A DNA stretch of 64,000 nucleotides from Betaproteobacteria bacterium Ga0077526 (GCA_001464765.1 LNDV01000025.1:247679-311678); one strand, 5' to 3'; positions 16,781 through 49,125 are shown, counted from the first letter of the stretch. A program made the numbers and translations. The notes: generated by a model not told the origin, from the letters alone.

Positions 16781-16799
16781 CCCGGCGCCCCGGGCCCCC

Positions 16800-25845: not shown

Positions 25846-25978
25846 CCTCGCAGGCACTCTTCACCTCGACGCCCCGCCCCAATCTGGGCGGGGCGTTTTG
25901 TTTTTCGGCGCTGCTTCGGTAACCTCGGGGCCGGCACAGCCATGCCGGCTGCATGCCGCAGGGGAAAAGCGGGACTGG

Positions 25979-28900
25979 ATGCACGGTCGCATCATTCATC
26001 CAGTCAGACCTTCCCCAGACTTCCTTACCGGAGCGTCCTATCCCGTGCCTCTGCTCGACCGGGTTCTGAAGCTGCGCGCGCAGAAGGCTGCCGCGCCGGA
26101 CGCCTCGCCGCGACCACCTCGACGCCGTCTCCGCAAAATCCTCATCGGGGTCGCGGTGGCGTTCGTCGCGCTCATCGCGTTCGGATTCTTTGCCGCACCG
26201 CCGATACTTCACTCGCTGCTGACATCCCGGCTGTCCGAGGAACTCGGCCGCAAGGTCACCGTCGGCGACATCCGCATCAACCCGTTCGCGCTGACGCTCG
26301 AGATACACGATTTCGTCATCCACGAACCCGGATCGACGCAACGGTTCGTTGCGTTCCAGCGCCTGAAGGTGGACGTCGACGCCGAATCGATCTACCGCCG
26401 TGCGCCAGTTCTGTCCGAGGTGACGCTCGAGAAGCCGTACGTCAACGTGGTGCTCCTCGCGCGAAACCGGCTCAACTTCACCGACCTCATCGAGAAATTC
26501 AGCAAGGACAAGAAGCCCGACGAGCAACCGGCGCGCTTCTCGGTGAACAACATCCGGATCCTTGGGGGCGAGGTCGACGTGGACGACCGGCCGCGCAAGA
26601 CGAAGCATCAGGTGCGCGAGCTGGCGCTCGCCGTGCCGTTCGTCTCGAACCTGCCCTACCACGGCAACATCTTCGTGCAGCCGGCGTTCGGCGCGAGCGT
26701 GAACGGCACCCGCTTCGACGTGAAAGGCAAGTCGAAGCCGTTCAGTGAGGCACGCGAGACCGACCTGGAACTCTCGCTGAAGGACCTCGACCTGCCCTAC
26801 TACCTGCGCTACCTGCCTATGACGCTGCCGTACCGCATCGCCTCCGCGCGGCTCGATCTGGATGCCACCATCGGCTTCGCGCAGCCAGCAGGCAAACCGT
26901 CGCGGCTCACGGTCACGGCATCGACTGCGCTACGCGCCGTGCGGGTCATCGCGTCCACCGACGCGCCCCTGGTCTCGTTTGAACGCCTGGACGTCCGGAC
27001 CAAGCCCATCGACGTATTCGGCGACGTCATCGCCGTCGCGTCGGTCAAGCTCGCCGGCGCCGACGTGAACGCGATACGGCAGGCGGACGGCGTCCTGAAC
27101 CTCGCCATCCTCGGGGCGACCGGCGCCTCGACTTCCCAGGAGGAGCAACCACCGGAGCCGAAGCCGGCCGGCGACGCAAAGCCCAAGACGATCACGGTGG
27201 ACAAGATCGAGCTGAGTGCCGCACGCATCCGCTTCCAGGACGACATGGTGCAGCCGGCGTTCCAGACTGTCATCGCACCGCTCGACGTCGTTGTCGAAGG
27301 CATCTCCACCGCCGCCGGGGCGCAACCCGCGCACTTGCTCCTCACGGCCACCACCGACGCGCAGGAATCGCTTCGCATCGAGGGCACGGCGAGCGTCGCG
27401 GGCAAGAGTGCGTCAATCGACGCTTCGCTCTCGCAGGTGCCGATTCCCCGCTACGCGGCGTACTACCGGAACGCCATCGCTTTCGACATCGGCTCGGGCA
27501 CGCTGTCGCTATCTGCGCATGCGGACGTGGCTGCGCCGCCGGAAGGTCTCTCGCTGCTGCTGTCGAAGGGCACGCTCGATCTCGCTGCCCTTCGGCTGCG
27601 CAAGGCGGGCGAGCCCGCTGACTTCCTTTCGCTCGCGCAATTCTCGGTGAAGGACACCTCCCTCGACCTGGCGCAGCAGCGCGTCACCGTGGGCGACATC
27701 CTCGCGGACAAGCTCGACGTGCGCGCGCGTCGTGCGAAGAACGGCGTGGTGAACCTGGCCACGCTCACGCCTTCGAAGCCCGCCGAGGCCAAGCCGGCAC
27801 CCGCCCCGGACGCCGCGCCGGCCAAACCGTGGGTGATAACGCTCGCGCATGTGCTTGTCGACCGGAGCCTGATCGAGTTCCAGGACGCCGTGCCCGCGAC
27901 GCCGGTCACGCTCTCGCTGAGCCCCACGCGGGTGGAAGTGTCCGATCTCGTTCTAGGCGCGCCGGGTACCGCCAGGCTCGCGCTCAAGACACTGCTGAAC
28001 GGCAAGGGCAGCTTCGACGCCTCCGGGACCTTCGCGATCGACCCGGTGGCGCTGGACCTGAAGACCCGCATCGCGAACCTCGACATCCCCACCTTCCAGC
28101 CCTACTTCGCGGATCGTCTCAATGTCACCCTGGCCGGTGCACGCGTCGGCGCCGACGGGCGACTCGGCGTGCGCCTGCCTGCGGGCAAGCCCGCGCTGAT
28201 CTCCTACGAGGGCGACGCCGGCATCTCGAAGTTCGCGTCCACCGACAATCGCACCGGCGAAGACCTGCTGCAGTGGGAGTCGCTCTACTTCAAGGGCGTG
28301 CGCGCGAAGAGCGAGCCCTTCGCACTCGCCATCCGGGAGGTCTCGCTCACGGACTTCCGGTCCCGACTGCAGGTCAATGCCGACGGCACGCTCAACGTAC
28401 AGGGTCTGGTCGCGCAGGACCCGAACGCCGCGCCGGCGGAATCGCCGGACGCGCCTGCGAAGCCCGGCAACCCGTCGGAGACCAAGGCGGCAGACGCGAG
28501 CCCCGTGCCGCGGTCCATCACCATCGACCAGGTCACGCTCCAGGGCGGCACCGTGCTCTTCAGCGACAAGCTCGTGAAGCCCAACGTGAGCGCGACGCTC
28601 ACCGAGATCGGCGGACGGGTCACGGGCCTGCTGGCCGATCCGTCGACGAAGGCCGACGTGGACCTGCGCGGGCGGCTCTCCAACCAGGCCCCGCTGGAAA
28701 TCACCGGCAAGGTGAACCCGCTCTCCGGCGACTTGTACGCCGATCTGAAGGTGAGCTTCCGGGATATCGAACTACCGCCGTTCACGCCCTACTCCGGCAA
28801 GTATGCCGGCTACACCATCGAGAAGGGCAAGCTCACGCTCGATCTGCGCTACCTCATCGAGAAACGGAAGATCACCGCCGAGAACAAGGTGTTCATCGAC

Positions 28901-29710
28901 CAGTTCACCTTCGGGGAGAAGGTGGAGAGCGCCGACGCCGTGAACCTGCCGGTGCAGCTGGCCGTGTCGCTCCTCAAGGACCGCGACGGACGCATCAATC
29001 TCGACGTGCCCGTATCGGGCTCGCTGGACGACCCCAAATTCAAGCTGGGGCGGGTGATCTGGCAGATCATCGTGAACTTGTTCACCAAGGCCGTGACAGC
29101 GCCCTTTGCCCTGCTGGGGTCCCTCATGGGCGGCAGCGGCGAGGAGCTGTCGTACCTGGAGTTCGCCCAGGGCTCGAGCACGCCGGACGACGCCGGCAAC
29201 GCCAAGCTCGCCCAGCTCGCCAAGGCCCTGACGGACCGACCGGCCCTCGGCCTCGAAGTCACGGGGCGTGTCGATCCGGAGACCGATCGGGAGGCCCTGC
29301 GCCAGATTGCCTTCGAGAACAAGCTGAGGGCCCAGAAGTTCGCCGCACTGAGCCGCGAGGGCCAGGCGCCGGCCTCCGTCGAGGCGACGGTCTACACGCC
29401 GGACGAAGTCGAGGGCCTCCTCCGCAAGGCCTACAAACAGGAGAAGTTTCCGAAGCCCCGCAACGCCATCGGCCTGGAGAAGTCCCTCCCCGCGTCCGAG
29501 ATGGAGAAGCTGATCCTGACCAGCATCGTGGTCGGTCCGGACGATCTGCGCCAGCTGGGTCTCCAGCGCGCCCAGAGCATCAAGGACACCCTCGTGACCC
29601 GCCACGGCATCGCGTCGGAACGAGTCTTCCTCGTCGAGGCCCGTACGGAACCCGGCGGCTCCGGCAAGGACAAAGGCAGACCGAGCCGCGCGGACTTCGT
29701 GATCCGCTGA
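25979..29710 (+). CDS. Large AsmA-family / DUF748-type protein (1244 aa), single N-terminal TM anchor
   Basis: N-terminal TM (ILIGVAVAFVALIAFGFFAAPPIL), then a long beta-rich region with repeated GxxDLxxxxV modules typical of AsmA/TamB-like proteins, and a distinct C-terminal domain. The start is uncertain. Confidence 0.7.
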   Translation: MHGRIIHPVRPSPDFLTGASYPVPLLDRVLKLRAQKAAAPDASPRPPRRRLRKILIGVAVAFVALIAFGFFAAPPILHSLLTSRLSEELGRKVTVGDIRINPFALTLEIHDFVIHEPGSTQRFVAFQRLKVDVDAESIYRRAPVLSEVTLEKPYVNVVLLARNRLNFTDLIEKFSKDKKPDEQPARFSVNNIRILGGEVDVDDRPRKTKHQVRELALAVPFVSNLPYHGNIFVQPAFGASVNGTRFDVKGKSKPFSEARETDLELSLKDLDLPYYLRYLPMTLPYRIASARLDLDATIGFAQPAGKPSRLTVTASTALRAVRVIASTDAPLVSFERLDVRTKPIDVFGDVIAVASVKLAGADVNAIRQADGVLNLAILGATGASTSQEEQPPEPKPAGDAKPKTITVDKIELSAARIRFQDDMVQPAFQTVIAPLDVVVEGISTAAGAQPAHLLLTATTDAQESLRIEGTASVAGKSASIDASLSQVPIPRYAAYYRNAIAFDIGSGTLSLSAHADVAAPPEGLSLLLSKGTLDLAALRLRKAGEPADFLSLAQFSVKDTSLDLAQQRVTVGDILADKLDVRARRAKNGVVNLATLTPSKPAEAKPAPAPDAAPAKPWVITLAHVLVDRSLIEFQDAVPATPVTLSLSPTRVEVSDLVLGAPGTARLALKTLLNGKGSFDASGTFAIDPVALDLKTRIANLDIPTFQPYFADRLNVTLAGARVGADGRLGVRLPAGKPALISYEGDAGISKFASTDNRTGEDLLQWESLYFKGVRAKSEPFALAIREVSLTDFRSRLQVNADGTLNVQGLVAQDPNAAPAESPDAPAKPGNPSETKAADASPVPRSITIDQVTLQGGTVLFSDKLVKPNVSATLTEIGGRVTGLLADPSTKADVDLRGRLSNQAPLEITGKVNPLSGDLYADLKVSFRDIELPPFTPYSGKYAGYTIEKGKLTLDLRYLIEKRKITAENKVFIDQFTFGEKVESADAVNLPVQLAVSLLKDRDGRINLDVPVSGSLDDPKFKLGRVIWQIIVNLFTKAVTAPFALLGSLMGGSGEELSYLEFAQGSSTPDDAGNAKLAQLAKALTDRPALGLEVTGRVDPETDREALRQIAFENKLRAQKFAALSREGQAPASVEATVYTPDEVEGLLRKAYKQEKFPKPRNAIGLEKSLPASEMEKLILTSIVVGPDDLRQLGLQRAQSIKDTLVTRHGIASERVFLVEARTEPGGSGKDKGRPSRADFVIR

Positions 29711-30000: not shown

Positions 30001-30071
30001 ACGATTGCCGCGCATCACGAGAGGGTTGACCGGCCTTCCCCCCCTTCTGTATAGTGCGCGGCTTTCCAAGT

Positions 30072-30147
<76 letters not shown>

Positions 30148-30169: not shown

Positions 30170-30245
30170 GTCCCCATCGTCTAGAGGCCTAGGACATCGC
30201 CCTTTCACGGCGGTAACCGGGGTTCGAATCCCCGTGGGGACGCCA
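30170..30245 (+). tRNA. tRNA-Glu (anticodon TTC)
   Basis: GTCCCCATCGTCTAGAGGCCTAGGACATCGCCCTTTCACGGCGGTAACCGGGGTTCGAATCCCCGTGGGGACGCCA, with anticodon loop CTTTCAC. Confidence 0.9.
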
Positions 30246-30249
30246 ACGA

Positions 30250-30280
30250 ACAAAGCCACCTTCCAGGTGGCTTTTTTCGT
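30250..30280 (+). terminator. Intrinsic terminator after the tRNA-Ala/tRNA-Glu pair
   Basis: AAAGCCACC-TTCCA-GGTGGCTTT stem-loop followed by TTTTT. The same hairpin recurs in every copy of the repeat module. Confidence 0.7.
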
Positions 30281-30285
30281 TGGTG

Positions 30286-30708
30286 CTCCCCGAGGGGATG
30301 CAGAACCCCGACAAGGGGTCGACCACGACGCACCGCGTCGTGGGACGCCGCACCAGCGGCGGTCCCGCGCCATCGGACGCGGGATGGACGGATCGCCACA
30401 AGGCGAGACGGATACACCAAAACGCACTGCGTTTTGGGACGCCGCTCCGGCGGCGGTCCTGCGCCGTCGGGCGCAGGATGGACGGATCGCCATAAGGCGA
30501 GACGGACACAATCCCCGTGGGGACGCCAAAACACGAAAGCCACCCATCGGGTGGCTTTCTTGTTTTGGTGTTCCCGCAGGGGATGCAGAACCCCGACAAG
30601 GGGTCGACCACGACGCACCGCGTCGTGGGACGCCGCCCCAGGCGGCGGTCCCGCGCCACCCGGACGCGGGATGGACGGATCGCCATGAGGCGAGACGGAC
30701 ACAAACCC
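30286..30708. repeat. Tandem array, locus 1, of ~150-nt structured repeat units (two full and one partial) with interspersed terminator-like hairpins
   Basis: The unit core GGGGATGCAGAACCCCGACAAGGGGTCGACCACGACGCACCGCGTCGTGGGACGCCGC...CGGACGCGGGATGGACGGATCGCCATAAGGCGAGACGGACACAATCCCCGTGGGGACGCCAA is repeated at 30286-30416 and 30571-30708, with a partial copy at 30437-30528. Each unit ends in a 19-nt mimic of the tRNA-Glu 3' end. Confidence 0.8.
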
Positions 30709-30744
30709 CCACAGTATTCCCACCAAATCAGTCACTTCGGCCTT

Positions 30745-31248
30745 TCATTTGCTTGGACGCATGGCCGTGTCTAGCTGATGTCTAAAATTCGGAGCGGTGT
30801 AAAGGTCCGAGGGCGCTGATCGCCCCCCGACACTGCGTGGATCGATCGCGAGTTCTGAGACATCTGCCGATGAAATGCGAGATTGCACACTGATGCGTTC
30901 GCATCCGCGCGGCGAGACGTTGCGAGCCCCCACACAGCGCTCACCACAATCCGTGTCGATTGCTGGCACGGTGACGGCGAACTCGTCGCTGCCACGACGC
31001 CAGCGCACCGGCAACCTCCCCATCAGTTCAGCATCGGGATCGCAACTGTTCGCGCGTGGATCCACGCGGATCTCCGCAAACTCCGCCAGCGTCTTCTCGC
31101 TCTTGAATGCAGCCAACGCTACCTTCGCCTTGAAGGCTGCCGTGCCTCCTTTTGGGCCTTCTCTCGTCAATGCTCCTTTTTCGGGCGACACCGTGGCCGA
31201 TGAGAGCAGAGACTTCAGTGATCCGCCAGTCCCGTTTCCTGGAACCAC
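30745..31248 (-). CDS. Hypothetical protein (doubtful)
   Basis: 167-codon ORF in a lower-GC stretch just inside the putative island. No domain and no clear SD. It may be non-coding. Confidence 0.2.
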   Translation of the reverse strand: MVPGNGTGGSLKSLLSSATVSPEKGALTREGPKGGTAAFKAKVALAAFKSEKTLAEFAEIRVDPRANSCDPDAELMGRLPVRWRRGSDEFAVTVPAIDTDCGERCVGARNVSPRGCERISVQSRISSADVSELAIDPRSVGGRSAPSDLYTAPNFRHQLDTAMRPSK

Positions 31249-31346
31249 CTCTGGAAAACCGCGTTCACTGGAGCCAAGCTATCGCATAACCGGTCCAGCT
31301 TCGTCCAGCGCGGGACCATGCGTTTCTGCTCGATGCTGTGCGCCTC

Positions 31347-32252
31347 TCACTGAACGAGTCCAACAGCTACCACCATCGAAGGCGCCTTCTCCAATACGCT
31401 TTGCGCGACCGACCCCAGCAACAAGCCCGTGACCGGGCCAAGCCCGCGTGTTCCCATCACGATGATGCCGTACGCGCCTTCCCTTGCAGTCTCGATAATG
31501 GCGATGTGAGCGTCATCGCCGACAACCACGTGCTCTGTGTATGCCACACCCGCTCGAGTGAGCGCACCGCGGGCTCCAGCCAGCGCTTCCTCCACACGCT
31601 TGCCTGACCAGACCTCGACTACCTTCTCGCGTGGACCAAGAATGGTACTTGCCAAGGTAAGCCCGGGCTCGACATGCACCAGTTGCACCTCGCCGTTGCA
31701 CAACAGCGCAAGGCGTGAGGCAAACGCCGCTGCGCGCATTGCGCTCTCCGAGCCATCGACCGCCAACAGCAATCGCGGCGGCAAAACGGGTGGGGGGTTA
31801 TCCGCAGCGCGCACTATGAGTACCGGAATGGTGGCTCTCCGGATTACTTTGGTCGATGTCGAGCCCAGAAGCGCGGCGCGGACGACCCCCAGACCGCGCC
31901 TTCCCATCACAATCGCATCGCAGGACAGTGCTTGCGCGCGCGTGACGATCGCGCTGGCGGCATCGTCTATCTGCTTTTCGATCTCGAACGGGATCGAACT
32001 TGAACGCATGACCGTCGCTGCTTGCCCGAGGATGTCAGCCGCACTGCGGTCGCGTTCGTCCAAAGCTACTCTGGCTGGTGCGAGTATGCCGACTTCACCG
32101 GACATGACGGGCTTTTGGACACTGAGGAGAGTACAGCGCAGGCGGCTCCCGTCAGCGCCAATCTGCGTGACCCAGCGCACTGCGGCTAGCGAATGCGCGG
32201 ACCCATCCACGGCAACGAGAAAGTGAAGCTCTTGGTTTCTTTCAGCGGTCAT
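31347..32252 (-). CDS. Universal stress protein, tandem UspA domains
   Basis: Two Usp domains (FLVAVDGSAHSLAAV..., LLLAVDGSESAMRAA...) with GxxGxG-like ATP motifs (MGRRGLG, MGTRGLG). Confidence 0.85.
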   Translation of the reverse strand: MTAERNQELHFLVAVDGSAHSLAAVRWVTQIGADGSRLRCTLLSVQKPVMSGEVGILAPARVALDERDRSAADILGQAATVMRSSSIPFEIEKQIDDAASAIVTRAQALSCDAIVMGRRGLGVVRAALLGSTSTKVIRRATIPVLIVRAADNPPPVLPPRLLLAVDGSESAMRAAAFASRLALLCNGEVQLVHVEPGLTLASTILGPREKVVEVWSGKRVEEALAGARGALTRAGVAYTEHVVVGDDAHIAIIETAREGAYGIIVMGTRGLGPVTGLLLGSVAQSVLEKAPSMVVAVGLVQ

Positions 32253-32313
32253 CTCTTTCCTCATGAGAAAGGCCGAACTACGGCATACCTTTCGATCCTT
32301 GCGGACGCTGGTC

Positions 32314-35046
32314 TCAGAGCGCACGCACCGTGCGCAGGCGCAAACGTAGCTGCTTCTCTACTTCAATGATGGCAAACAACGCGATGCCGACAAGTACGAT
32401 GAGCAGCCCGTCCAGCAATGGCACCGATTCGGTCCCCAATACCGCTTGCAGCGGTGGAAGGTAAGTGATCGAAAACTGGGCGACCGTGATGATGATGACC
32501 GTCAGCCACACCACCTTGGTACCACGCACTGCTCTCCAGGTAAGCGAGGTTGCATAGATGTTGCGAATGAAGAACAGATGGAAGATCTCCATGACGACAA
32601 GTGTGTTGAGGGCGATGGTGCGGGCAAGCTCGACCGAGTAGCCGCGGTCGATCGCGTAGGCGAAGATGCCGAATACGCCGCAAACGAACAGAACAGCCAC
32701 CAGCACGATGTGCCACACCAGCTCTCCGTTGAGCAGGGGTTCGTTGCGAGCGCGGGGCGGACGGCGCATCGTTCCGTCCTCCGTCGGCTCGAACGCCAAT
32801 GCAACGCCGAGCGTGACGGCGGTAATCAGGTTGATCCACAGGATCTGCACCGGCGTTACCGGCAACGTCATCCCCACGAGCAGCGCCGCGACAATGGTCA
32901 TGGCTTCGCCTGCGTTGGTGGGAAGCGTCCAGCTGATGACCTTCTTGATGTTGTCGTAGACCGTCCGCCCCTCCCGGACGGCCGCGACGATCGACGCGAA
33001 GTTGTCGTCCGCCAGCACGAGTTCCGCGGCCTCCTTAGCGGCCTCGGTGCCCTTCTTGCCCATCGCGATACCCGCATCCGCCCGTTTCAGCGCCGGCGCG
33101 TCGTTCACTCCGTCACCGGTCATGGCGACGCTGATGCCGTGTGACTGCAGCGCCATGACCAGGCGGAGCTTGTGCTCGGGGCTGGTGCGGGCGAAAACAT
33201 CGGTCTCCAGCACCGCGCCGGCAAGCCTCGGGTCGTTCATGGCGTCAAGATCGACGCCGGTGAGTACCTTCTCCGGATTCAGCAAACCGATTTGCCGAGC
33301 GATCGCCCTTGCAGTTCCCGCATGATCGCCAGTAATCATCTTCACGCGAATGCCCGCGCTATGGCATTCGCCCACTGCTGCAATCGCCTCCAAGCGCGGC
33401 GGGTCGATCAGTCCGACCAGCCCGAGCAGTGTCAACGTGCCTTCGACTTCCGCGTGGTCGAGAACCGTGCGCTCTGGCAACACGGGTAGTGACGCGAGCG
33501 CGAGCACGCGCTGACCTTGCGAAGCGATGCGGTCGGCGGATTCGTGCCAGAACCTCGCCTCCAGGGGCTGCACCCCACCCGAGGCCGATCGTTGCTCCTT
33601 GCACATGGAGACGATCCGCTCCGGCGCGCCCTTCACGAAGACGAACGCATGCTCTTCGCGGTCATGATTCAACGTGGCCATGAAACGATGCTTGGCATCG
33701 AAGGGGATGGCGTCGGTGCGGGTCCAGGTGATGCGCTCATCGCGCCAGTCGACGCCGGCCTTACCAGCCAATGCGAGGAGTGCACCTTCCATCGGGTCGC
33801 CCTCCACCGTCCAATCGCCTTCGTGCTCGCGCAGCGATGCGTCGCTGCACAAGGCAGCGACACGGCCCAGTTCGGCCAGCATCGGGTGTTCGATGGCTGC
33901 GATCGCGCGCCCCCCAAGGAAGATCTCACCTGCAGGTGCGTAGCCCGCGTCCGGAACCACATACACGCCAGCAACGGTTGCGACAGACGCCACGGCCATC
34001 TCGTTGCGTGTGAGCGTGCCGGTCTTGTCCGTACAGATCACCGACACCGAACCCAGCGTCTCGATGGCAGGAATTCGCCTGACGATGGCGTTGCGCCGGG
34101 CCATGGCGTGCACGCCGATGGCGAGGGTGATGGTCATAACGGCCGGCAGCCCTTCGGGTATCGCGGCCACGGACACTCCGACCACCACCATGAGCATGTC
34201 TGCGAAGGGGTAGTGGCGGACGAAGTAGCCGAAGGCGAGCAGGATCGCGGCGACTAACAGGATCACCAGGGTCAGCCAGCGGGCGAACACGTCCATCTGC
34301 TTCACCAGCGGCGTCGTCAGTGCCTCGACGGTCGAGAGCATCCCGCTGATGCGCCCAATCTCGGTCGCCGCCCCCGTGGCGACCACCACGCCTTTGCACT
34401 GGCCCGTGGTGACGAGCGTGCCGCTGAACGACATGCAGGTCCGGTCGCCCAGCGCCGCGCCCTTGGAAACCGGTTTGACGCCCTTCTCCACCGGTATCGA
34501 TTCGCCGGTGAGGATGGCCTCTTGAACGAATGCGCCGTGCGTCACGACAATCCGCACATCGGCGGGCACCTTGTCGCCGGCCTCGAGCAGCACGATGTCC
34601 CCGGGCACGAGCGCCTCACCGTCCACCGTCTGCCGTTCGCCGCCGCGCAGCACCGCGGCGCGAGGGGCAAGCATCCGGCGTATGGCTTCCATGGCCTTCT
34701 CTGCCTTGCCTTCCTGGACGAAGCCAATGACTGCGTTCGCGATCACCACCGCGAGGATCACCGCCGTGTCCGCCATGTGATCCAGCGCGAGCGTGATCAC
34801 GGCCGCCCCCAGCAGCAAGTAGATCAGAATGTTGTGAAACTGCAGCAGAAAGCGCATGAGTGCGCCTCGCCTTGGTCGCTCGGGGAGGCGATTGGGGCCG
34901 TAGGTCTGGAGCCGTGCCTGCGCCGCGTCTGTGCTCAAACCCGACGGAGTGGTACTCAGCTCGGCAAGCACTGATTCCACGGAACGGTCATGCCAGCTTG
35001 GCATGGTCGTCGTCGACGTGTCGTTCGGTACCGTCGACTCACGCAT
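32314..35046 (-). CDS. Cation-translocating P-type ATPase (type II, Ca2+/Mg2+-like), 910 aa
   Basis: DKTGTLT phosphorylation motif, TGES, MITGDH, GDGVNDAPALK, and 10 TM helices. Confidence 0.9.
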   Translation of the reverse strand: MRESTVPNDTSTTTMPSWHDRSVESVLAELSTTPSGLSTDAAQARLQTYGPNRLPERPRRGALMRFLLQFHNILIYLLLGAAVITLALDHMADTAVILAVVIANAVIGFVQEGKAEKAMEAIRRMLAPRAAVLRGGERQTVDGEALVPGDIVLLEAGDKVPADVRIVVTHGAFVQEAILTGESIPVEKGVKPVSKGAALGDRTCMSFSGTLVTTGQCKGVVVATGAATEIGRISGMLSTVEALTTPLVKQMDVFARWLTLVILLVAAILLAFGYFVRHYPFADMLMVVVGVSVAAIPEGLPAVMTITLAIGVHAMARRNAIVRRIPAIETLGSVSVICTDKTGTLTRNEMAVASVATVAGVYVVPDAGYAPAGEIFLGGRAIAAIEHPMLAELGRVAALCSDASLREHEGDWTVEGDPMEGALLALAGKAGVDWRDERITWTRTDAIPFDAKHRFMATLNHDREEHAFVFVKGAPERIVSMCKEQRSASGGVQPLEARFWHESADRIASQGQRVLALASLPVLPERTVLDHAEVEGTLTLLGLVGLIDPPRLEAIAAVGECHSAGIRVKMITGDHAGTARAIARQIGLLNPEKVLTGVDLDAMNDPRLAGAVLETDVFARTSPEHKLRLVMALQSHGISVAMTGDGVNDAPALKRADAGIAMGKKGTEAAKEAAELVLADDNFASIVAAVREGRTVYDNIKKVISWTLPTNAGEAMTIVAALLVGMTLPVTPVQILWINLITAVTLGVALAFEPTEDGTMRRPPRARNEPLLNGELVWHIVLVAVLFVCGVFGIFAYAIDRGYSVELARTIALNTLVVMEIFHLFFIRNIYATSLTWRAVRGTKVVWLTVIIITVAQFSITYLPPLQAVLGTESVPLLDGLLIVLVGIALFAIIEVEKQLRLRLRTVRAL

Positions 35047-35432
35047 CAGATCTTGACCTTTGAGATGCGATCGAACCGAAATTCAACAGACCCTGGCCGC
35101 AGCGCCTCACAGGACCTGTCCGCGGCCGACATCACGAAGCGCGTGCGCTGTCGTCCTCTCCCACCAACCGCGATCACGGTCAAGCCGGAGGCGCTCGGCG
35201 CTGACTCTTCGTGCCATGTCCGTCTGACCAGCCATGAAATGCGGACGTTGGTTCCAGGCGGCAACATGTTCGATGACAGGACTTGTCAGGTGAAGCAGAG
35301 GAGCGCTGCTACAGAGTAAGCCGTGCGCTTGGCGCCTAGATGCTCGGTAAGCACGATGACGGCACGTGCAGCCTTGACCGAGACGACGTGCGTTGATCGG
35401 CGTGAGCGGTTGCTGCGCATCCCCTGGTCGGC

Positions 35433-36302
35433 CTATTTGACCACCGTCACCGGTACGTCGGCGCTGTGGATCGTCTTGTAGGCGGTAGACCCGAGGACCA
35501 GCGCCGCCATCCCGCCGAGCCCTCGTGATCCCATGACGATATGCGCGAAGCCATGCGACTTCGCTGAAGCACCAATCAGGTTCGCCGGATCGCCGCAGTC
35601 GACGGCGATTGCATACGGAATGCCCGCCGCGTCGAGCCGGCGGCGGGCGATCTCGGAGAACTGCGCCGCGTGCTCCTGCTGGTGCTCCACAATCGCCTCC
35701 TGCGACAAACCTCGCGTCTGCCATTCCACGACCGGCTCCTGGACATTGAGAAGCTTCACCTGGGCACCGACGTGCCCTTTGGCGCGACCGATAACGTAGC
35801 CCAAGGCGCGATTCGCGTGCTCCGATCCATCGACCGGCACCAGCACGGGGGCGAACAGCGACGACCATACACTGGTGTCCTTGACCAACGTGACGGGTAG
35901 CTGAGAAAGGTGCACGACCTGCGTTGCGACGGAACCGAGCACGAGATTGCCGAGGGCGCCCATTCCTCGTGACCCCATCACGATTTCCGTGCAGGCCGAG
36001 TCCATCGCGTGACGAGTGATGGTCTCCCCGATATGGCCGCGCAAGAGGTGCGACTGGTAGCCAATTCCCGTTTGACCTAGGAGCGCGCAGAACGGTCGTA
36101 GCGTGTCTTCGCCGTAGGCACGCAGGGCTGTTTCGATCGTGTCATCCGAGAGGTGCGCACGAACCAAACCGGACTCGACTCGAGGCTGGACATTGAGAAC
36201 GTCGATCGTGGCCCCCGGGCAGCGTTTCGCAAGGTCGATCCCAAAGCGTAGCGCCTGCATAGCAGCATCCGATCCGTCCACGGGAACGAGTATCTTGTTC
36301 AT
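35433..36302 (-). CDS. Universal stress protein, tandem UspA domains
   Basis: MNKILVPVDGSDAAMQAL... and VLVPVDGSEHANRAL..., with MGSRGMG and MGSRGLG. Confidence 0.85.
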   Translation of the reverse strand: MNKILVPVDGSDAAMQALRFGIDLAKRCPGATIDVLNVQPRVESGLVRAHLSDDTIETALRAYGEDTLRPFCALLGQTGIGYQSHLLRGHIGETITRHAMDSACTEIVMGSRGMGALGNLVLGSVATQVVHLSQLPVTLVKDTSVWSSLFAPVLVPVDGSEHANRALGYVIGRAKGHVGAQVKLLNVQEPVVEWQTRGLSQEAIVEHQQEHAAQFSEIARRRLDAAGIPYAIAVDCGDPANLIGASAKSHGFAHIVMGSRGLGGMAALVLGSTAYKTIHSADVPVTVVK

Positions 36303-36895
36303 TCGTCTTGCTCCTACGCTATGTTGGTTCTCTTGGGACGATGTTGTGTCGCGCCGTGCGTCGGATCGGTAGTCTTCACTCCCCATTCGCGGCGCGGCAA
36401 CATCGTGTGCGTGCACGTCCAACCCAGACCGTAAGCCGTCGAGCACCTGCGCGGATGTCAGCACTCAGGGCTGTGCGCGATGCTCCCGGACGACGTCGAA
36501 CGCGGGGGCCACGCCGTACCGGCCAACATGTGCTGCCCCAGCTTCGCTGCGAAGCGAGTGAATGCGAGATTCCATGATGTTCCCTTTCCCGAGTGAGCCC
36601 GGAATGCGTCAACGCGGAAGATAAGCGTCGATGCGCTGCGGGAAAACCACCCTATTGGTGAACAACAGTTCTGGAAAACCGAACAGACGACCACAAGAAA
36701 TCACGCCTCACCCGAACCACGGATTCCGCTCAGTGAGCGTGGAAGGCTACTTTGACCTTCGTACGCCCTCGCCATGGAGGATCTTTGCTCGCACTCGCGT
36801 GGCGCGGGTTGACTTTAATCAACCCACCTTGCATACAGTGCACCAAAATGCCTGGACAACGGCCACGTGGGGCATCGAGACGAGAGGACAGCGGA

Positions 36896-38551
36896 TTGCA
36901 CGGCGTTTTCGGGGAGTTTGCACTGTTGCTGATGTTGGCTGCCTGCGCGGGTGCGGCGTCGCTTTGGCTGCGCCAGCCGCTGTTGATCGCCTATATCGTC
37001 ATTGGTATCGTCGCCGGTCCCGCGGTACTTGGGGTAGTCACCGCGCACGATCAGATTGACCTGCTCGCACAGGTTGGTGTGGCGGTGTTGCTTTTCGTCG
37101 TCGGCCTCAAGCTTGATCTGCAACATGTCCGCCATATCGGGCCCGTTGCTCTGGCCACCGGCTTGGGCCAGCTCACTTTCACCATTGTCATAGGGTTCAT
37201 GCTTATCCTGGCGATGGGGAAAGGCTGGTTAGAGGCGCTCTACGTCGCCATCGCGCTGACGTTCTCCAGCACCATCATCATCGTCAAGCTGCTTTCGGAC
37301 AAACGCGAAATCGACTCGCTGCACGGGCGGATCGCAGTCGGGTTCCTTATCGTCCAGGATCTTGCGGTCGTGATCGCGATGATGGTGATGAGTGCATTGC
37401 GTGGCGACGACGGAGAGAGCTCTTTGCTCGCCCTGGCGGGCTCGCTCGCGGCGCTGATCGGCGCCGCCGCCGTGGGCTTGTCTCTACTGATGCGCTACGT
37501 GCTGCCGAGGGTCGTCGATCGCATGGCGCAATCGCAGGAATTGCTGCTGGTCTTCGCCGTCGCGTGGGGCACGGGATTGGCGGCACTCGGCGATTGGGCC
37601 GGGTTCTCAAAGGAAGCCGGCGCGTTCCTAGCCGGCTTCTCGCTGGCTTCGACCCAGTATCGCGATGCCATCAACGCGCGCCTGACCGGTATCCGCGACT
37701 TCCTTCTGTTGTTCTTTTTCATCGATCTCGGTGCCAAGCTTGAGTTCTCCACACTCGGCGGCGAGATCTGGCCCGCGGTGGTGCTGTCGCTTTTCGTATT
37801 GATCGGCAATCCGCTGATCGTGATGGTCATCATGGGGTATATGGGCTATCGCAAGCGCACCGGCTTTCTTTGCGGGCTGACGGTGGCGCAGATCAGCGAG
37901 TTTTCGATCATCTTCGTCGCCATGGGCATCGCACTCGGCCACATCGGCACTGCGGCGCTGGGGCTGACCACGCTGGTTGGTCTGGCGACCATTGCGCTGT
38001 CGACTTACATGATTCTTTACTCCCACCCGCTCTACGAAAGACTGGCGCCTTGGCTTGGCGTCTTCGAGCGCAAGCGTCCCCACCGCGAACTGGCAGTGGC
38101 GACGGAGCGCAACGACCTGCGTGAGGCCGACGTGATCGTATTCGGTCTCGGACGTTATGGCAGCCACTTGGCGCTCGGCCTGCGCAAGGCCGATCTGAGG
38201 GTACTCGGGGTCGATTTCGATCCCGAGGTGGCAAGCGCGCTGAGGCGCCGGGGTCTTCCAGTGCGTTACGGGGACTGCACGGCCGGCGAGTTCCTTGAGA
38301 GCCTGCCACTCAAGGACACGCGCTGGGTGGTCAGTACTCTGCCGGACATGGCCTCGAACCGCGATCTATTGCGCGGCCTGCGGGAGTTGAATTTTTCCGG
38401 TGACGTGGCGGTCGTTGCACGCGAGGAAACCGTTGACATTGGACTGAAGAAGCTCGGCGCCTCGATTGTTCTCTACCCCATGCGCGATGCCGTCGATTAT
38501 GCAGTCGATACGTTGGCCCAGGTTCTCCGTCCCCCGGAGGGTAGACAATGA
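36896..38551 (+). CDS. CPA2-family monovalent cation:proton antiporter with a C-terminal TrkA-N (KTN) domain
   Basis: TTG start with GAGAGGA SD. Na_H_Exchanger-type TM core (LLIAYIVIGIVAGPAVLG), then a Rossmann-type VIVFGLGRYG domain. Confidence 0.8.
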   Translation: MHGVFGEFALLLMLAACAGAASLWLRQPLLIAYIVIGIVAGPAVLGVVTAHDQIDLLAQVGVAVLLFVVGLKLDLQHVRHIGPVALATGLGQLTFTIVIGFMLILAMGKGWLEALYVAIALTFSSTIIIVKLLSDKREIDSLHGRIAVGFLIVQDLAVVIAMMVMSALRGDDGESSLLALAGSLAALIGAAAVGLSLLMRYVLPRVVDRMAQSQELLLVFAVAWGTGLAALGDWAGFSKEAGAFLAGFSLASTQYRDAINARLTGIRDFLLLFFFIDLGAKLEFSTLGGEIWPAVVLSLFVLIGNPLIVMVIMGYMGYRKRTGFLCGLTVAQISEFSIIFVAMGIALGHIGTAALGLTTLVGLATIALSTYMILYSHPLYERLAPWLGVFERKRPHRELAVATERNDLREADVIVFGLGRYGSHLALGLRKADLRVLGVDFDPEVASALRRRGLPVRYGDCTAGEFLESLPLKDTRWVVSTLPDMASNRDLLRGLRELNFSGDVAVVAREETVDIGLKKLGASIVLYPMRDAVDYAVDTLAQVLRPPEGRQ

Positions 38552-39465
38552 GTACGCTTGAATGCATTCTAGTTGCAATGGATCTCTCGGCGCCTGCGCG
38601 ACATGCGGCGGAGCGTGCCTTTCGCGTCGCCGCGCGCACCGGCTTTGAACTTCACATTCTTCACGTACAGGAGCTCGACGCTCTCGATTCGCTGCGCGAC
38701 CTGCTCGGTGCGTACTTGCCGACAGCCAAGGAGGCTGTCGCAGAGGAAGCACGCGAACGACTGAGGCAATTGGCCGCCGACCCGGCTCGCCACCGTGGCG
38801 TCGCCGCGAAGACGCGGGTCGTCTCAGGCGTACCGCTCCCGGTTATTGCCAGCGAGGCTGACGCACTGGATGCCCGCCTCCTCGTGCTCGGTGCGCGTGG
38901 CGAGTCCTTTTTGCAACATGCGATGCTTGGTTCAACAGCATCGCGCTTGCTGCGCAAGTCGGTGCGGTGGCCGGTACTAGTGGTCAAGCAACCGCCTCGC
39001 GAGGATTACAGCAACGTTCTTGTCGCGGTGGATTTCTCGCCGGCCTCTCAGCTTGCGATCCGTGAGGCGAGGCGATGGGCCCCTGGGGCTGATCTTGTTC
39101 TGCTGCATGCCTTTGAGTTGCCTTACGAGGGCAAGCTGGCCTTTGCCGGCGTCGACGAGCAGGTCGTTCGACAATACATCACTGCCGGCATCGAGGCTCG
39201 GCGCATTCGACTGCATGAGGTGGCGGCCAACGCAGGTCTTAGATCGGGCGACTATTTGGTGCGGGTGATCCATGGCGACGCGCCTCGGCAGATCATCGCC
39301 ATGGAGCAGGAGTACGATGTCGATTTGATCGTCATGGGCAAGCACGGGACGCACATCGTTGAGGAGTTGTTCCTCGGTAGTGTCACCAAGCATGTACTGG
39401 CCGATGCTCAAGGCGACGTGCTGGTGGTCGCCGACCCGCGTCCTGGAGTGGGCGGACTGCCTTGA
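38548..39465 (+). CDS. Universal stress protein, tandem UspA domains
   Basis: ATGA overlap with the antiporter gene. ILVAMDLSAPARHAAE... and VLVAVDFSPASQLA... Confidence 0.85.
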   Translation: MSTLECILVAMDLSAPARHAAERAFRVAARTGFELHILHVQELDALDSLRDLLGAYLPTAKEAVAEEARERLRQLAADPARHRGVAAKTRVVSGVPLPVIASEADALDARLLVLGARGESFLQHAMLGSTASRLLRKSVRWPVLVVKQPPREDYSNVLVAVDFSPASQLAIREARRWAPGADLVLLHAFELPYEGKLAFAGVDEQVVRQYITAGIEARRIRLHEVAANAGLRSGDYLVRVIHGDAPRQIIAMEQEYDVDLIVMGKHGTHIVEELFLGSVTKHVLADAQGDVLVVADPRPGVGGLP

Positions 39466-39805
39466 GCACACTGATACTCGTGGGCGTCGGCGGCTTGTCC
39501 TTTTCGGCATGCGCTCATGACTGACGGTCTCAATCGCTGATCGTGGCGCGTCACCGCGTACAGCCCGTCGAAGGACCGGCGCATGTCCACTTGCCAACCG
39601 CACAGACGCACTCGTACCTGACCCTCGGGGAAGAACGTCAGCGTCACACCAGGTGCAGGCTCAGACCGCCGCCGAGGTCCAGGTGCAGTTCCCTCGCCGC
39701 GGCTGGCGTGAACACTCCCGAGGACATCGTACCCAGATCGACGAACGCCGCCTCGGCTTTGGGCGCCACGACGAGATCGGCCGCGCCCAAGCGGCAGCGC
39801 CACTA

Positions 39806-43864: not shown

Positions 43865-43904
43865 GGATCCACCGGGGGCTGCACCCGCTCGGCTGGCTGG
43901 GACA

Positions 43905-44102
43905 GGTCGACCCAAGCGCACCGCGTCGTGGGACGCCGCCCCAGGCGGCGGTCCCGCGCCATCGGACGCAGGATGGACGGATCGCCATAAGACGAGACGG
44001 ACACAATCCCCTTGGGGACGCCAACGAACAAAGCCACCTTCCGGGTGGCTTTTTTCGTTAGTGCTCCCCGAGGGGATGCAGAACCCCGACAAGGGGTCGA
44101 CC
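43905..44102. repeat. Locus 2 of the structured repeat family: partial unit, tRNA-Glu 3'-end mimic, terminator-like hairpin, and the head of another unit
   Basis: ...CACCGCGTCGTGGGACGCCGCCCCAGGCGGCGGTCCCGCGCCATCGGACGCAGGATGGACGGATCGCCATAAGACGAGACGGACACAATCCCCTTGGGGACGCCAACGAACAAAGCCACCTTCCGGGTGGCTTTTTTCGTTAGTGCTCCCCGAGGGGATGCAGAACCCCGACAAGGGGTCGACC. Confidence 0.8.
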
Positions 44103-44265
44103 CGCCTGCCGTTTCGAGTATCAACGGCTCTTGGAGAGTCGCGTCCTGGATGGATGAGACTCGACGCCGCAGTTTAAACGGCTCAGGGGGCAAGCACTCC
44201 AAGTGAGCGCGCCGATCCGCCCAAATGAGCCCCCGCCGCTAGAAAGCGCGGCAGGGGGCTCACCC

Positions 44266-45402: not shown

Positions 45403-45681
45403 GGGACTCTCCTTGTCCTCTTGGGTACTGATGAATGGGTGCCGTTACAGCGAAGGCGGCGGACACCGAGTGCCGTGAACCGGGCCAACCGGAGAACCTG
45501 GGCAGCCTCCCCTGAGAAGGCCACTTCGGCTGTCTGACGGCGCAATTCGGGCGAGCCCATTGCCTGGCCACCTCCACTGACGGGGATGGGATTCCCACGA
45601 GCCGGCACAGCCACGAGGCTGTTCCAGCGCCGCAATCGGCCCATCACCCGCGTTCGGCGGGGTACTTCCAATCGCACTGTA

Positions 45682-45750: not shown

Positions 45751-45754
45751 GTAA

Positions 45755-48666: not shown

Positions 48667-48709
48667 TTTCACGGCGGTAACCGGGGTTCGAATCCCCGTG
48701 GGGACGCCA
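48667..48709 (+). repeat. Direct repeat of the 3' 43 nt of tRNA-Glu(TTC), from the anticodon loop to the 3' end; putative attR of the island
   Basis: TTTCACGGCGGTAACCGGGGTTCGAATCCCCGTGGGGACGCCA is identical to 30203-30245. The 5' half of the tRNA is absent. Confidence 0.8.
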
Positions 48710-49125
48710 ACGAACAAAGCCACCTTCCGGGTGGCTTTGTTCGTTGGTGCTCCCGCAGGGGATGCAGAACCCCGACAAGGAGTCGACCACGACGCACTGC
48801 GTCGTGGGACGCCGCCCCGCGGCGGTCCTGCGCCATCGGGCGCAGGATGGACGGATCGCCATAAGGCGAGACGGACACAATCCCCGTGGGGACGCCAAAA
48901 CACAAAAGCCACCCAATAGGTGGCTTTTTTCGTTGGTGCGCCCCGAGGGGATGCAGAACCCCGACGAGGGGTCGACCACGACGCACCGCGTCGTGGGACG
49001 CCGCCCCGCGGCGGTCCTGCGCCACCGGACGCGGGATGGACGGATCGCCATAAGGCGCAACGGACACAATCCCCGTGGGGGCGCCAGTAAAAACAGCGGC
49101 TTAGGCCGCTGTTTCCATTTCTAGC
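48710..49125. repeat. Locus 3 of the structured repeat family: terminator hairpin plus two full units, each ending in the tRNA-Glu 3' mimic and followed by a hairpin
   Basis: Units at about 48749-48897 and 48939-49085. Hairpins at 48710-48748, 48898-48938 and 49091-49115 (AAACAGCGGCTTAGGCCGCTGTTT). Confidence 0.8.

What the first reader, a model, noticed from the sequence alone, without database searches (positions are those of the whole stretch)
30286..30708. Novel ~150-nt highly structured repeat family ending in a tRNA-Glu 3'-end mimic, always followed by the same terminator hairpin; seven or more copies at three loci
Seen in sequence:
- The units are at 30286-30416, a partial at 30437-30528, 30571-30708, a partial at 43905-44025, 48749-48897 and 48939-49085, with unit heads again at 44063-44102.
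- They share a core with multiple internal hairpins: CCCCGAGGGG, CCCCGACAAGGGG, GACGCACCGCGTC, TCCCGCGCCATCGGACGCGGGA.
- Every unit terminates in ACAATCCCCGTGGGGACGCCAA, which matches the T-arm 3' strand plus acceptor end of the adjacent tRNA-Glu.
- Each unit is followed by a near-identical AAAGCCACC-loop-GGTGGCTTT-T(n) hairpin.
- The six-frame ORFs overlapping these regions are mutually antisense, repeat-derived artefacts.

Inference: this is neither REP nor CRISPR. It could be a tRNA-3'-end-targeting MITE/SINE-like element, a stack of att scars from serial integration and excision, or a structured ncRNA family that hijacks tRNA processing signals.
Basis: seen in the sequence. Interest (0 to 1): 0.7.

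Follow-up and report, generated by a model that had tools for sequence, protein, structure and literature searches.

The report
Structured repeat borrowing neighbouring tRNA ends
Next to a tRNA-Glu gene sits a real, apparently undescribed ~150-base folded element whose conserved core recurs beside other tRNA genes in other Betaproteobacteria, each time wrapped in copies of that tRNA's own 3' end; what it does is not known.

Summary
The repeat family is real. I count six conserved cores ("bodies"), five "heads" and four "tails" at three loci, not seven or more units.

Each full unit has three parts:
- Head: an inverted copy of about the last 28 nt of the neighbouring tRNA, followed by a direct T-stem/TTCGA half.
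- Body: a conserved 94-128 nt core of four hairpins.
- Tail: a direct copy of the tRNA from T-loop A58 to CCA, followed by a terminator hairpin.

Six homologous loci turned up in other Betaproteobacteria. They lie beside tRNA-Ser(GGA), tRNA-Ser(CGA), tRNA-Gly(CCC) and a tRNA-Glu fragment. There the head and tail copy that local tRNA, not tRNA-Glu, so the "tRNA-Glu mimic" is local copying.

Body helices covary: 97% of cells are paired and 10 pairs change on both sides (0/500 shuffles reach this). The tRNA-sense strand always folds better than its complement. Rfam, the phage and plasmid collections and the literature searches found no match.

A separate, ordinary feature overlaps the family. An 18.5-kb low-GC island is bounded by a duplicated tRNA-Glu 3' half, which is a normal att structure.

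Best reading, at moderate confidence: a new modular, plus-strand structured RNA element lodged in the T-loop of a tRNA-3'-end hairpin. Its function and its means of spread are unresolved.

The parts
30170..30245 (+). tRNA-Glu(UUC). Positions ~49-76 are the template for the heads and tails. It is co-transcribed with tRNA-Ala (30072-30147) from a promoter-like site at 30026-30055.
   Evidence: ARAGORN, Rfam, promoter scan
30252..30274 (+). Terminator hairpin T1 (AAAGCCACC/GGTGGCTTT plus a T-run). It is the centre of a 44-nt-arm quasi-palindrome formed by the tRNA 3' end and head 1.
   Evidence: 38 of 44 arm positions match
30280..30322 (+). Head of unit 1: an inverted copy of tRNA-Glu 49-76 plus spacer, then the direct half GGGGTCGA.
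30323..30416 (+). Body 1a (helices H3-H6). It has no tail and is joined directly (ACA|CC) to the next body.
30417..30510 (+). Body 1b. Its H3 carries two compensated pairs (CG->AA on one arm, CG->TT on the other).
30510..30528 (+). Tail of unit 1, identical to tRNA-Glu from A58 to CCA.
   Evidence: (family D8)
30536..30558 (+). Terminator hairpin T2.
30565..30722 (+). Unit 2: head 30565-30607, body 30608-30703, and a degenerate tail. No terminator follows. The island interior starts here.
43905..44104 (+). One circularly permuted period inside the island, with GTCGACC at both ends and no tRNA nearby. Order: GTCGA, body 43911-44005, tail 44005-44023, terminator 44030-44052, head 44058-44100, then CC.
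48667..48709 (+). Copy of the 3' half of tRNA-Glu, from the anticodon loop to CCA. It is the attR-type repeat of 30203-30245 and marks the right boundary of the 18.5-kb island.
48716..48738 (+). Terminator hairpin. It is the centre of the quasi-palindrome formed with head 48744-48786 (40 of 44 arm positions match).
48744..48897 (+). Unit 4, complete: head 48744-48786, body 48787-48879, tail 48879-48897.
48905..48927 (+). Terminator hairpin between units 4 and 5.
48933..49086 (+). Unit 5, complete: head 48933-48975, body 48976-49068, tail 49068-49086 (variant GGGGGCGCCAG).
49092..49113 (+). A different terminator hairpin (AACAGCGGC/GCCGCTGTT) that closes the array. It is conserved at the homologous locus L064.

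Best explanation
This is an undescribed family of modular structured elements that live in the 3' flank of tRNA genes in Betaproteobacteria.

Shown, anatomy:
- After the tRNA and its terminator comes an inverted copy of the tRNA's last ~28 nt (T-arm, acceptor 3' strand and CCA).
- A direct copy of the same segment follows, then a second terminator.
- The conserved 94-128 nt body (helices H3-H6) is lodged in the direct copy. It sits exactly in the T-loop, between TTCGA and the following A/T-T.
- The invariant stretches are GGAUGGACGGAUCGCC-N4-GGCGAGACGG(A/C)CACA.

Predicted fold (the helices come from MFE and RNAalifold predictions; base-pair covariation supports the body helices only):
- Head and tail pair into a long closing helix. 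This helix has the geometry of a stacked acceptor/T-stem with a 3' NCCA.
- It encloses a multi-helix junction.

Inferred, mechanism:
- The functional form is a plus-strand RNA made by read-through from the tRNA operon. No promoter of its own was found.
- It ends at its own terminator and may be trimmed by tRNA-processing enzymes (RNase P and 3' exonucleases).
- The tRNA-derived flanks are products of how the module is installed and kept, not an evolved mimic. Candidate processes are recombination or template switching through the duplicated "tRNA 3' end plus terminator" segment, followed by gene conversion with the neighbouring tRNA.
- The same duplicated segment allows tandem gain and loss of units.
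- The patchy distribution, together with a nearly invariant core in hosts of different composition, suggests horizontal spread. That makes it a selfish or mobile-element-associated RNA rather than a housekeeping one.

Its cellular function is unknown.
For: Family membership and context:
- Homologous bodies occur at six other loci beside four kinds of tRNA. Tails match the local tRNA at 17-19 of 18-19 positions. The break in homology always falls at T-loop A58.
- The head is the reverse complement of local tRNA 49-76 plus spacer and terminator arm: 32-40 matches of 43-50 positions at 8 junctions.

Evidence for a selected fold:
- All 8 full units give the same predicted fold, with z-scores of -6.0 to -7.6.
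- Of 29 body pairs, 97.3% of cells are paired, against 89.2% in shuffles and 33-42% when partners are slid.
- Ten pairs change on both sides; 0/500 shuffles reach this.
- The plus strand is 6-14 kcal/mol more stable than the minus strand in 8 of 8 units. G.U cells outnumber A.C cells 22 to 5.

Evidence for selection at the locus level:
- In every locus where a tRNA or tRNA fragment is visible, the unit is in the tRNA's orientation and is followed by a terminator.
- At orthologous tRNA-Ser(GGA) loci in two species, the tRNA and unit are conserved while the DNA beyond the second terminator cannot be aligned. Head and tail follow the lineage-specific T-stem change.
- Glu-type heads fit Glu-type tails (-30 to -36 kcal/mol) but not Ser or Gly tails (-11 to -17).

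Evidence that the body is a discrete module:
- There is a direct body-to-body junction at 30416|30417.
- Heads occur without bodies at 44058-44104 and in L066. In each the similarity to the family ends about where the body would begin.

Absence elsewhere:
- No match in Rfam, phages, plasmids or the papers searched.
Against: - There is no expression data.
- A good terminator stands directly upstream of every unit and no promoter was found. Transcription therefore depends on read-through.
- Only seven independent loci are known, several of them closely related, so the covariation rests on few events.
- For Ser-type units the head-tail pairing cannot be told apart from G-run/C-run composition.
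- The T-loop itself is interrupted and the T-stem 5' strand is not conserved, so tRNA-like processing is conjecture.
- A single-stranded DNA structure would also give covariation and strand asymmetry.
- The permuted copy at 43905-44104 has different break points (GTCGACC) from those at tRNAs. One installation mechanism does not explain both.
- No partner enzyme was identified.
Confidence: 0.45

Rival explanations
1. Att-site debris. The units would be remnants (arms plus displaced tRNA 3' ends) left by serial integration and excision of genomic islands at tRNA genes, or gene-less integrative mini-elements moved in trans by a T-loop-specific tyrosine integrase. The body would be a protein-binding arm acting only as double-stranded DNA.
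For: - A 43-nt tRNA-Glu half (48667-48709) repeats 30203-30245 and bounds an 18.5-kb low-GC island.
- Integrases lie beside the unit arrays in L064 and L047.
- The permuted copy at 43905-44104 is bounded by a 7-bp identity, the size of a tyrosine-recombinase overlap.
- A shared CGTGTCTA...GAATGCG motif flanks the arrays and the L064 integrase.
Against: - Compensatory changes in four helices and the plus-strand stability bias are not expected of a double-stranded binding arm.
- Four of six outside loci have a single unit between a tRNA and ordinary genes, with no integrase.
- The island repeat starts in the anticodon loop, whereas the unit tails start at A58. These are two different phenomena.
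- The L064 integrase-proximal arm contains no unit.
- The head is an inverted tRNA copy, which integration does not produce.
- The H6 probe sequence occurs in only 3 of 185,579 species genomes, and only one of those hits is near an integrase.
Confidence: 0.15
2. Non-autonomous single-strand-DNA transposon. The body would be a miniature IS200/IS605-type element (PATE-like, possibly carrying a guide-RNA scaffold). It would insert without target duplication 3' of TTCGA in T-loop hairpins, and the adjacent tRNA 3' end would lie where such elements read their guide.
For: - The body boundaries are precise and identical beside four tRNA types, always after (T)TCGA.
- The body ends in CACA, with a hairpin near each end.
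- There is a head-to-tail body-body junction at 30416|30417.
- The structure is strand-specific.
- A roughly 20-nt tRNA-derived stretch and a terminator follow the scaffold, as in TnpB-type guide RNAs (comparison from my own knowledge).
Against: - No TnpA, TnpB, IscB or other transposase was found beside any copy or among the window ORFs scanned.
- The two end hairpins are unlike each other, and H3 varies freely in sequence.
- Exact-pattern scans of the genome, metagenome and viral collections found the right-end sequence only in these miniature units, never in a full-length element.
- Rfam's IS605-related and HEARO models do not match.
- The tail is paired with the head, which would mask a guide.
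- This model does not explain the inverted head.
Confidence: 0.1
3. By-product of local DNA rearrangement. Fold-back or template-switch replication at two natural palindromes (the terminator and the T-arm) would create inverted and direct copies of the tRNA 3' end. Tandem duplication would do the rest, and the element would have no function.
For: - The complementarity runs unbroken from the terminator stem through the spacer, CCA, acceptor strand and T-arm. That is what fold-back copying predicts.
- The terminators before and after a unit are often related.
- Copy number differs between relatives: two units in the window against one in L064.
Against: - It cannot explain a body with more than 35 invariant nucleotides and compensated helices shared by hosts of different composition and four tRNA contexts.
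- It cannot explain the conservation of the unit between orthologous loci whose flanks have diverged.
- At most it explains the origin of the head and tail.
Confidence: 0.08
4. Retro-element of the SINE type. The unit RNA would be copied by a reverse transcriptase acting in trans. The head would be a primer-binding site for the tRNA 3' end, or the CCA end a start site.
For: - The head is complementary to the last 16-28 nt of the local tRNA, CCA included.
- The RNA-type structure is on the tRNA strand.
- The ends adapt to each tRNA.
- The element lies exactly at the tRNA 3' flank, with the tRNA end duplicated.
Against: - No reverse transcriptase was found near any copy or among the window ORFs scanned.
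- I know of no precedent in bacteria.
- The model does not account for the body position inside the T-loop.
Confidence: 0.05

Closest known systems
tRNA gene fragments and direct repeats left by tyrosine-integrase genomic islands (attL/attR at tRNA genes)
   Same: Copies of a tRNA 3' end lie downstream of an intact tRNA. The homology break falls in a loop of the tRNA. Islands and integrases occur at the same sites. The window contains one bona fide example (30203-30245 and 48667-48709).
   Different: The units also carry an inverted tRNA copy and a conserved body with covarying helices. Most occur as single units with no island or integrase.
Bacterial MITEs with structured transcripts (for example Correia/NEMIS or ERIC elements)
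   Same: They are about 150 nt long, have terminal inverted repeats and a strong predicted fold, and are non-coding and repeated.
   Different: Here the terminal repeats are copied from the neighbouring tRNA and change with the locus. Copies are not dispersed but sit only in tRNA 3' flanks. No parent insertion sequence was found, and there is no ordinary short target duplication.
tRNA-like modules in non-tRNA RNAs (the tmRNA tRNA-like domain, bacterial Y RNA YrlA, mascRNA)
   Same: The 5' and 3' ends pair into an acceptor-like helix ending in NCCA. RNase P-type processing is plausible.
   Different: The T-loop is interrupted by the body and no D-loop or T-loop mimic is seen. The end sequence is that of the adjacent tRNA rather than a fixed identity. 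Rfam models for these families do not match.
IS200/IS605-derived miniature elements (PATEs) and their guide-RNA scaffolds
   Same: Insertion is precise, without duplication, after a short motif. Hairpins lie near each end. The structure is strand-specific, and a structured scaffold is followed by flanking sequence.
   Different: The end hairpins are dissimilar and no transposase or nuclease partner was found. The head-tail pairing and the inverted tRNA copy have no counterpart in those elements.
Group I introns in bacterial tRNA genes
   Same: A structured RNA interrupts a tRNA-like sequence at a defined loop position.
   Different: Those introns sit in the anticodon loop of functional tRNAs, are at least ~200 nt long and match Rfam RF00028. 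This body is 94-128 nt, sits in the T-loop of a non-functional partial copy and has no Rfam match.

Membership tests
REP/BIME elements | Short (20-40 nt) imperfect palindromes, in many copies dispersed through intergenic regions | tested here: not met
   The unit is ~150 nt with five different hairpins. Copies occur only in tRNA-linked arrays within the 64 kb.
CRISPR array | Identical 23-47 nt repeats separated by unique spacers of similar length | tested here: not met
   The whole ~189-nt period is repeated and there are no unique spacers. The only Rfam CRISPR match has E = 7.6.
MITE | Terminal inverted repeats shared by all copies and by a parent insertion sequence | tested here: not met
   Terminal repeats exist, but they are reverse complements of the local tRNA 3' end and differ between Glu, Ser and Gly loci. 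The IS630-type gene at 39887-40918 is unrelated.
MITE | Short target-site duplication and dispersed insertion sites | tested here: inconclusive
   The flanking direct repeat is the tRNA 3' end (19 nt), often together with the terminator. One copy (43905-44104) is flanked by GTCGACC. Sites are not dispersed.
Integrative-element att repeats at tRNA genes | Direct repeat identical to the 3' part of the target tRNA on both sides of the inserted DNA | tested here: met
   Tails equal tRNA positions 58-76. A separate 43-nt repeat bounds the 18.5-kb island.
Integrative-element att repeats at tRNA genes | A cognate integrase within or beside the inserted DNA, or evidence of excision | tested here: not met
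   No integrase lies between tRNA-Glu and 48667 in the window, nor in L028, L054, L063 or L066. Integrases in L064 and L047 belong to separate islands. Excision cannot be tested with these tools.
Any Rfam 15 family | Score at or above the family's gathering threshold | tested here: not met
   Only tRNAs pass the threshold. Nothing overlaps the bodies, even at E <= 10 in the window or E <= 1 in five other loci.
IS200/IS605-type miniature element | Insertion without duplication 3' of a conserved 4-5 nt motif | tested here: inconclusive
   The body always follows (T)TCGA, with variants GTCGA, TCCGA and AGTGA, and ends in CACA. No empty site was available for comparison.
IS200/IS605-type miniature element | Similar subterminal hairpins at both ends and a TnpA/TnpB-bearing relative | tested here: not met
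   H3 and H6 are unlike each other. Pattern scans found no full-length relative. No such protein was found in the window ORFs scanned.
tRNA-like RNA domains (tmRNA, YrlA and similar) | Acceptor-type helix with 3' NCCA and an intact T-arm | tested here: inconclusive
   A closing helix of 7-18 pairs ending in NCCA is predicted. However, the T-loop is split by the body, and the pairing is not statistically separable from composition in the Ser types.
tRNA-like RNA domains (tmRNA, YrlA and similar) | Processing by RNase P or the CCA enzymes, or aminoacylation | not testable with these tools
   This needs RNA end mapping or in vitro cleavage.
Group I intron in tRNA | Catalytic core (P3-P8) and location in the anticodon loop of a functional tRNA | tested here: not met
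   The body is 94-128 nt, sits in a T-loop copy and gives no RF00028 match.

The most novel reading that the evidence does not exclude
The body is a new kind of small mobile element that targets the universally conserved T-loop sequence of tRNA-type hairpins, acting as RNA or as single-stranded DNA. It would install itself beside tRNA genes by copying the tRNA 3' end in both orientations. That would make it a bacterial counterpart of tRNA-related SINEs or retroplasmids, able to move between different tRNA genes. As a side effect it would create inverted pseudo-attachment sites that genomic islands can use, as L047 suggests.
Probability: 0.2. Interest if true: 0.85.

Novelty: new variant of a known kind. 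Interest (0 to 1): 0.6.

Why it matters
If the element is a functional RNA, it adds a structured RNA family with an unusual design: a fixed core inside end sequences borrowed from whichever tRNA is next door. That points to a link with tRNA processing or tRNA-end recognition.

If it is mobile, it would be the first small bacterial element known to use the T-loop of tRNA-type hairpins as its site. It would also help explain how tRNA flanks gather repeats and islands.

There are practical consequences too:
- Such units create partial and inverted tRNA copies that confuse tRNA and island annotation.
- They form long quasi-palindromes next to essential genes.
- They produce spurious ORF calls.

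Tried and rejected
- Rfam at gathering and permissive thresholds, on the window and on five other loci: only tRNAs matched. A weak sX4 hit covers only tRNA-Ser plus its terminator.
- Viral contig scans with two core patterns: 19 hits and 1 hit, all chance matches in coding DNA.
- Genome scan: 37 hits, of which 3 were real. Metagenome scan: 7 hits, of which 3 were real. A nhmmer hit in Marinobacter (L040) proved to be coding DNA.
- blastn of a unit against the plasmid and phage collections: no match.
- Using a spurious ORF across the repeats as a probe of the protein database: no hits.
- Looking for empty or variant sites through orthologues of the two downstream genes:
  - The 223-aa protein has almost no relatives.
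  - The PAS-GGDEF-EAL orthologues place the host near Roseateles/Paucibacter. Their neighbourhoods hold no tRNA-Glu and no unit.
- Coding potential of the units: rejected, because of indels that are not multiples of three, compensated stems and several open frames on both strands.
- Retron, integron attC, dif/Xer, group II intron remnant and IS110 bridge-RNA readings: considered from memory and dropped. No adjacent reverse transcriptase or recombinase was found, no core-site consensus is present, and the sizes do not fit.
- Duplex-energy test of head-tail pairing: informative only for the Glu type. G-run/C-run composition makes it uninformative for the Ser types.
- Five literature searches, including one for the invariant 16-mer, and one review read: nothing describes this element.

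Full report
**1. What is in the window**

tRNA-Ala(GGC) (30072-30147) and tRNA-Glu(UUC) (30170-30245) lie behind a promoter-like site at 30026-30055. A repeat family occurs at three places downstream: 30246-30722, 43905-44104 and 48667-49113.

Regular-expression mapping gives:
- five heads: 30280-30322, 30565-30607, 44058-44100, 48744-48786, 48933-48975;
- six bodies: 30323-30416, 30417-30510, 30608-30703, 43911-44005, 48787-48879, 48976-49068;
- four tails: 30510-30528, 44005-44023, 48879-48897, 49068-49086;
- five AAAGCCACC/GGTGGCTTT terminator hairpins, plus a different one at 49092-49113.

Its details need these corrections:
- There are six bodies, not seven or more units.
- Two bodies lack a proper tail.
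- One unit has no terminator and one has a different terminator.
- 48667-48709 is a 43-nt copy of the 3' half of tRNA-Glu, not a unit end.

**2. An ordinary island overlaps the family**

- GC falls from about 0.68 to about 0.61 between 31 and 45 kb.
- The 18.5 kb between tRNA-Glu and the tRNA half carries three Usp genes, a P-type ATPase, a Na+/H+ exchanger, an IS630-type transposase, a PEP-CTERM-tailed protein, a Band 7 protein, a small tRNA cluster, an HTH_17 protein and ParDE.
- The bounding repeat starts in the anticodon loop (TTTCACGG...). The same holds at the homologous locus L064, where a tyrosine integrase sits next to the tRNA half.
- This is a normal island at a tRNA gene. It explains the tRNA half but not the units. 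I found no integrase in the window's island.

**3. The family exists elsewhere, and its ends follow the local tRNA**

Exact-pattern scans with the invariant H6 region found three true homologues among 185,579 species genomes (L028, L047, L054) and three in metagenomes (L063, L064, L066). All other hits were chance matches.

| Locus | Upstream tRNA | Tail of the unit |
|---|---|---|
| L054, L066 | tRNA-Ser(GGA) | AATCCCTCCCTCTCCGCCA or AATCCCCCCCTCTCCGCCA |
| L028 | tRNA-Ser(CGA) | AATCCCACCCCCTCCGTCA |
| L063 | tRNA-Gly(CCC) | ATTCCCATTGCCCGCTCCA |

In each case the tail is the 3' end of that tRNA from A58 onward. The "tRNA-Glu mimic" is therefore a local copy.

The head is the reverse complement of the local tRNA from about position 49 to CCA. 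The complementarity continues through the spacer and the terminator arm, with 32-40 matches of 43-50 positions at eight junctions. A short direct copy of the T-stem 5' strand and TTCGA then follows.

Without its body, a unit would be a hairpin made of an inverted and a direct copy of the tRNA 3' end. The body sits in the direct copy's T-loop, after TTCGA and before A/T-T.

Three observations mark the body as a discrete module:
- The break is at the same place beside four tRNA types.
- Two bodies are joined directly at 30416|30417 (...GGATACA|CCAAAACGC...).
- Heads occur without bodies at 44058-44104 and after the second terminator in L066. In each the similarity to the family ends about where the body would begin.

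**4. Structure**

- Eight full units give the same predicted fold: a closing helix (head with tail), a small hairpin, and helices H3 to H6 around a junction. z-scores against shuffles are -6.0 to -7.6.
- On the 12-sequence alignment, 97.3% of cells in 29 body pairs form standard pairs. Shuffles give 89.2% and slid partners give 33-42%.
- Ten pairs show changes on both sides; 0/500 shuffles reach this. Seven of the nine H3 pairs covary.
- H6 has a conserved tandem G.A/A.G interior. The stretches GGATGGACGGATCGCC and GGCGAGACGG(A/C)CACA are invariant or nearly so.
- The plus strand folds 6-14 kcal/mol better than the minus strand in all eight units. G.U cells outnumber A.C cells 22 to 5, although 12 of the 22 come from one invariant pair.
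- Head-tail pairing is type-specific between Glu and Ser/Gly units. For the Ser types it cannot be separated statistically from G-run/C-run composition.
- In L028 a tail change away from its tRNA (CCCTCTCC to CCCCCTCC) is matched by a run of G in the head. In L064 the tail has lost nearly all tRNA similarity, yet 7 head-tail pairs remain in the predicted fold; this residual pairing is not separable from composition in the duplex test (read).

**5. Conservation and distribution**

- L054 and L066 hold the same tRNA-Ser(GGA) locus in two species. The tRNA and the unit align almost without change. Substitutions fall in loops or are compensated, including G.U intermediates in H4. The sequence beyond the second terminator cannot be aligned.
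- Head and tail both follow the lineage-specific change in the tRNA T-stem. This argues for selection on the unit and for sequence exchange with the adjacent tRNA.
- The family is rare and patchy. Its core is identical in hosts of visibly different base composition, which suggests horizontal spread.
- The window belongs to JGI metagenome contig 3300002461|AADWTP_10000249. The same arrangement occurs in an activated-carbon metagenome.
- Orthologues of a neighbouring protein place the host near Roseateles/Paucibacter, at 76-77% identity.

**6. What it is not**

- No Rfam family matches, and there is no match in the phage or plasmid collections.
- The ORFs across it are artefacts.
- No reverse transcriptase, HUH transposase, TnpB or integrase is linked to the units.
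- In L047 a P4-type integrase gene lies next to the complement of the head. That is the canonical "tRNA 3' end then integrase" layout. The inverted tRNA copy has probably been used there as a secondary attachment site (inference).
- Literature searches found no description of the element.

**7. Interpretation**

The best-supported reading is an undescribed modular element whose selected form is a plus-strand structured nucleic acid, most likely RNA. It would be transcribed by read-through from the tRNA operon and end at its own terminator.

The closing helix has the geometry of a stacked acceptor/T-stem with NCCA, so tRNA-processing enzymes may define its ends. That step is inferred, not shown.

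The tRNA-derived head and tail are best seen as traces of installation and maintenance. Candidate processes are recombination or template switching through the duplicated "tRNA 3' end plus terminator" segment, and gene conversion with the tRNA. They are not an evolved tRNA-Glu mimic.

Open points:
- There is no expression evidence, and a terminator stands in front of every unit.
- There are few independent loci.
- The permuted copy is bounded by GTCGACC rather than by the A58 break.
- No partner enzyme was found.

Rival readings keep appreciable weight: att debris or integrase-moved mini-elements, a miniature single-strand-DNA transposon, a pure rearrangement by-product, and a retro-element.

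**8. Verdict**

The feature is real and is not explained by known families. I rate the novelty as a new variant of known kinds (structured RNA motif or small repeat element), with about a one-in-five chance that it is a new type of T-loop-targeting mobile element.

Noticed in passing
window 30246-48666: An 18.5-kb low-GC island is bounded by tRNA-Glu and a 43-nt copy of its 3' half. Its cargo includes three Usp genes, a P-type ATPase, a Na+/H+ exchanger with a TrkA domain, an IS630-type transposase (39887-40918), a PEP-CTERM-tailed 803-aa protein, a Band 7 protein, an HTH_17 protein and ParDE. I found no integrase in it.
   Followed up: partly
window 45678-46232 (minus strand): A small tRNA cluster lies inside the island: tRNA-Arg(CCG), a tRNA called Phe with the unusual anticodon AAA, and a third partial tRNA-like Rfam hit at 46173-46232. 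It looks like a phage- or island-borne tRNA set.
   Followed up: no
window 30765-30800 and 49130-49170; L064 around 6960-7000 and 7330-7360: A shared motif, CCGTGTCTA(N)...GT(A/C)...GAAT(G/T)CGG, lies just beyond both unit arrays. In L064 it also lies next to the integrase-proximal end of the island. It may be an integrase arm-type site left by earlier integrations. The 9-mer count alone is not significant (2 found; 13 of 100 shuffles reach 2).
   Followed up: partly
L047 3423-3600: A P4-type tyrosine integrase gene starts about 145 nt from the complement of a unit head. This copies the usual "tRNA 3' end then integrase" layout and suggests that the inverted tRNA copy in a unit can serve as an attachment site in the opposite orientation.
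   Followed up: partly
window 61572-61642: ARAGORN calls a tRNA-Thr(CGT) here, but Rfam's tRNA model does not. The call lies inside a long ORF next to a 21-nt periodic coding repeat (61172-61360). It is probably a false positive.
   Followed up: no
window 57314-57970 and 61172-61360: Two in-frame periodic repeats sit inside long ORFs: a 153-nt period with five copies, and a 21-nt period with six copies (glutamate- and glutamine-rich heptads). These are repeat proteins unrelated to the finding.
   Followed up: no
L054 303-459 and L066 1582-1751: Sub-threshold Rfam matches to the proteobacterial sRNA sX4 (46 and 35 bits, gathering score 70) cover tRNA-Ser(GGA) and its terminator but not the unit. 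The sX4 model seems to overlap a tRNA-Ser gene.
   Followed up: no
window 16758-17963 and 20150-21151: An EF-P rhamnosyltransferase EarP gene and a WYL-WCX regulator gene lie in the core-genome part of the window, together with an AcrB-type efflux operon (2418-7481) and an AsmA/DUF748 giant protein (25898-29710).
   Followed up: no
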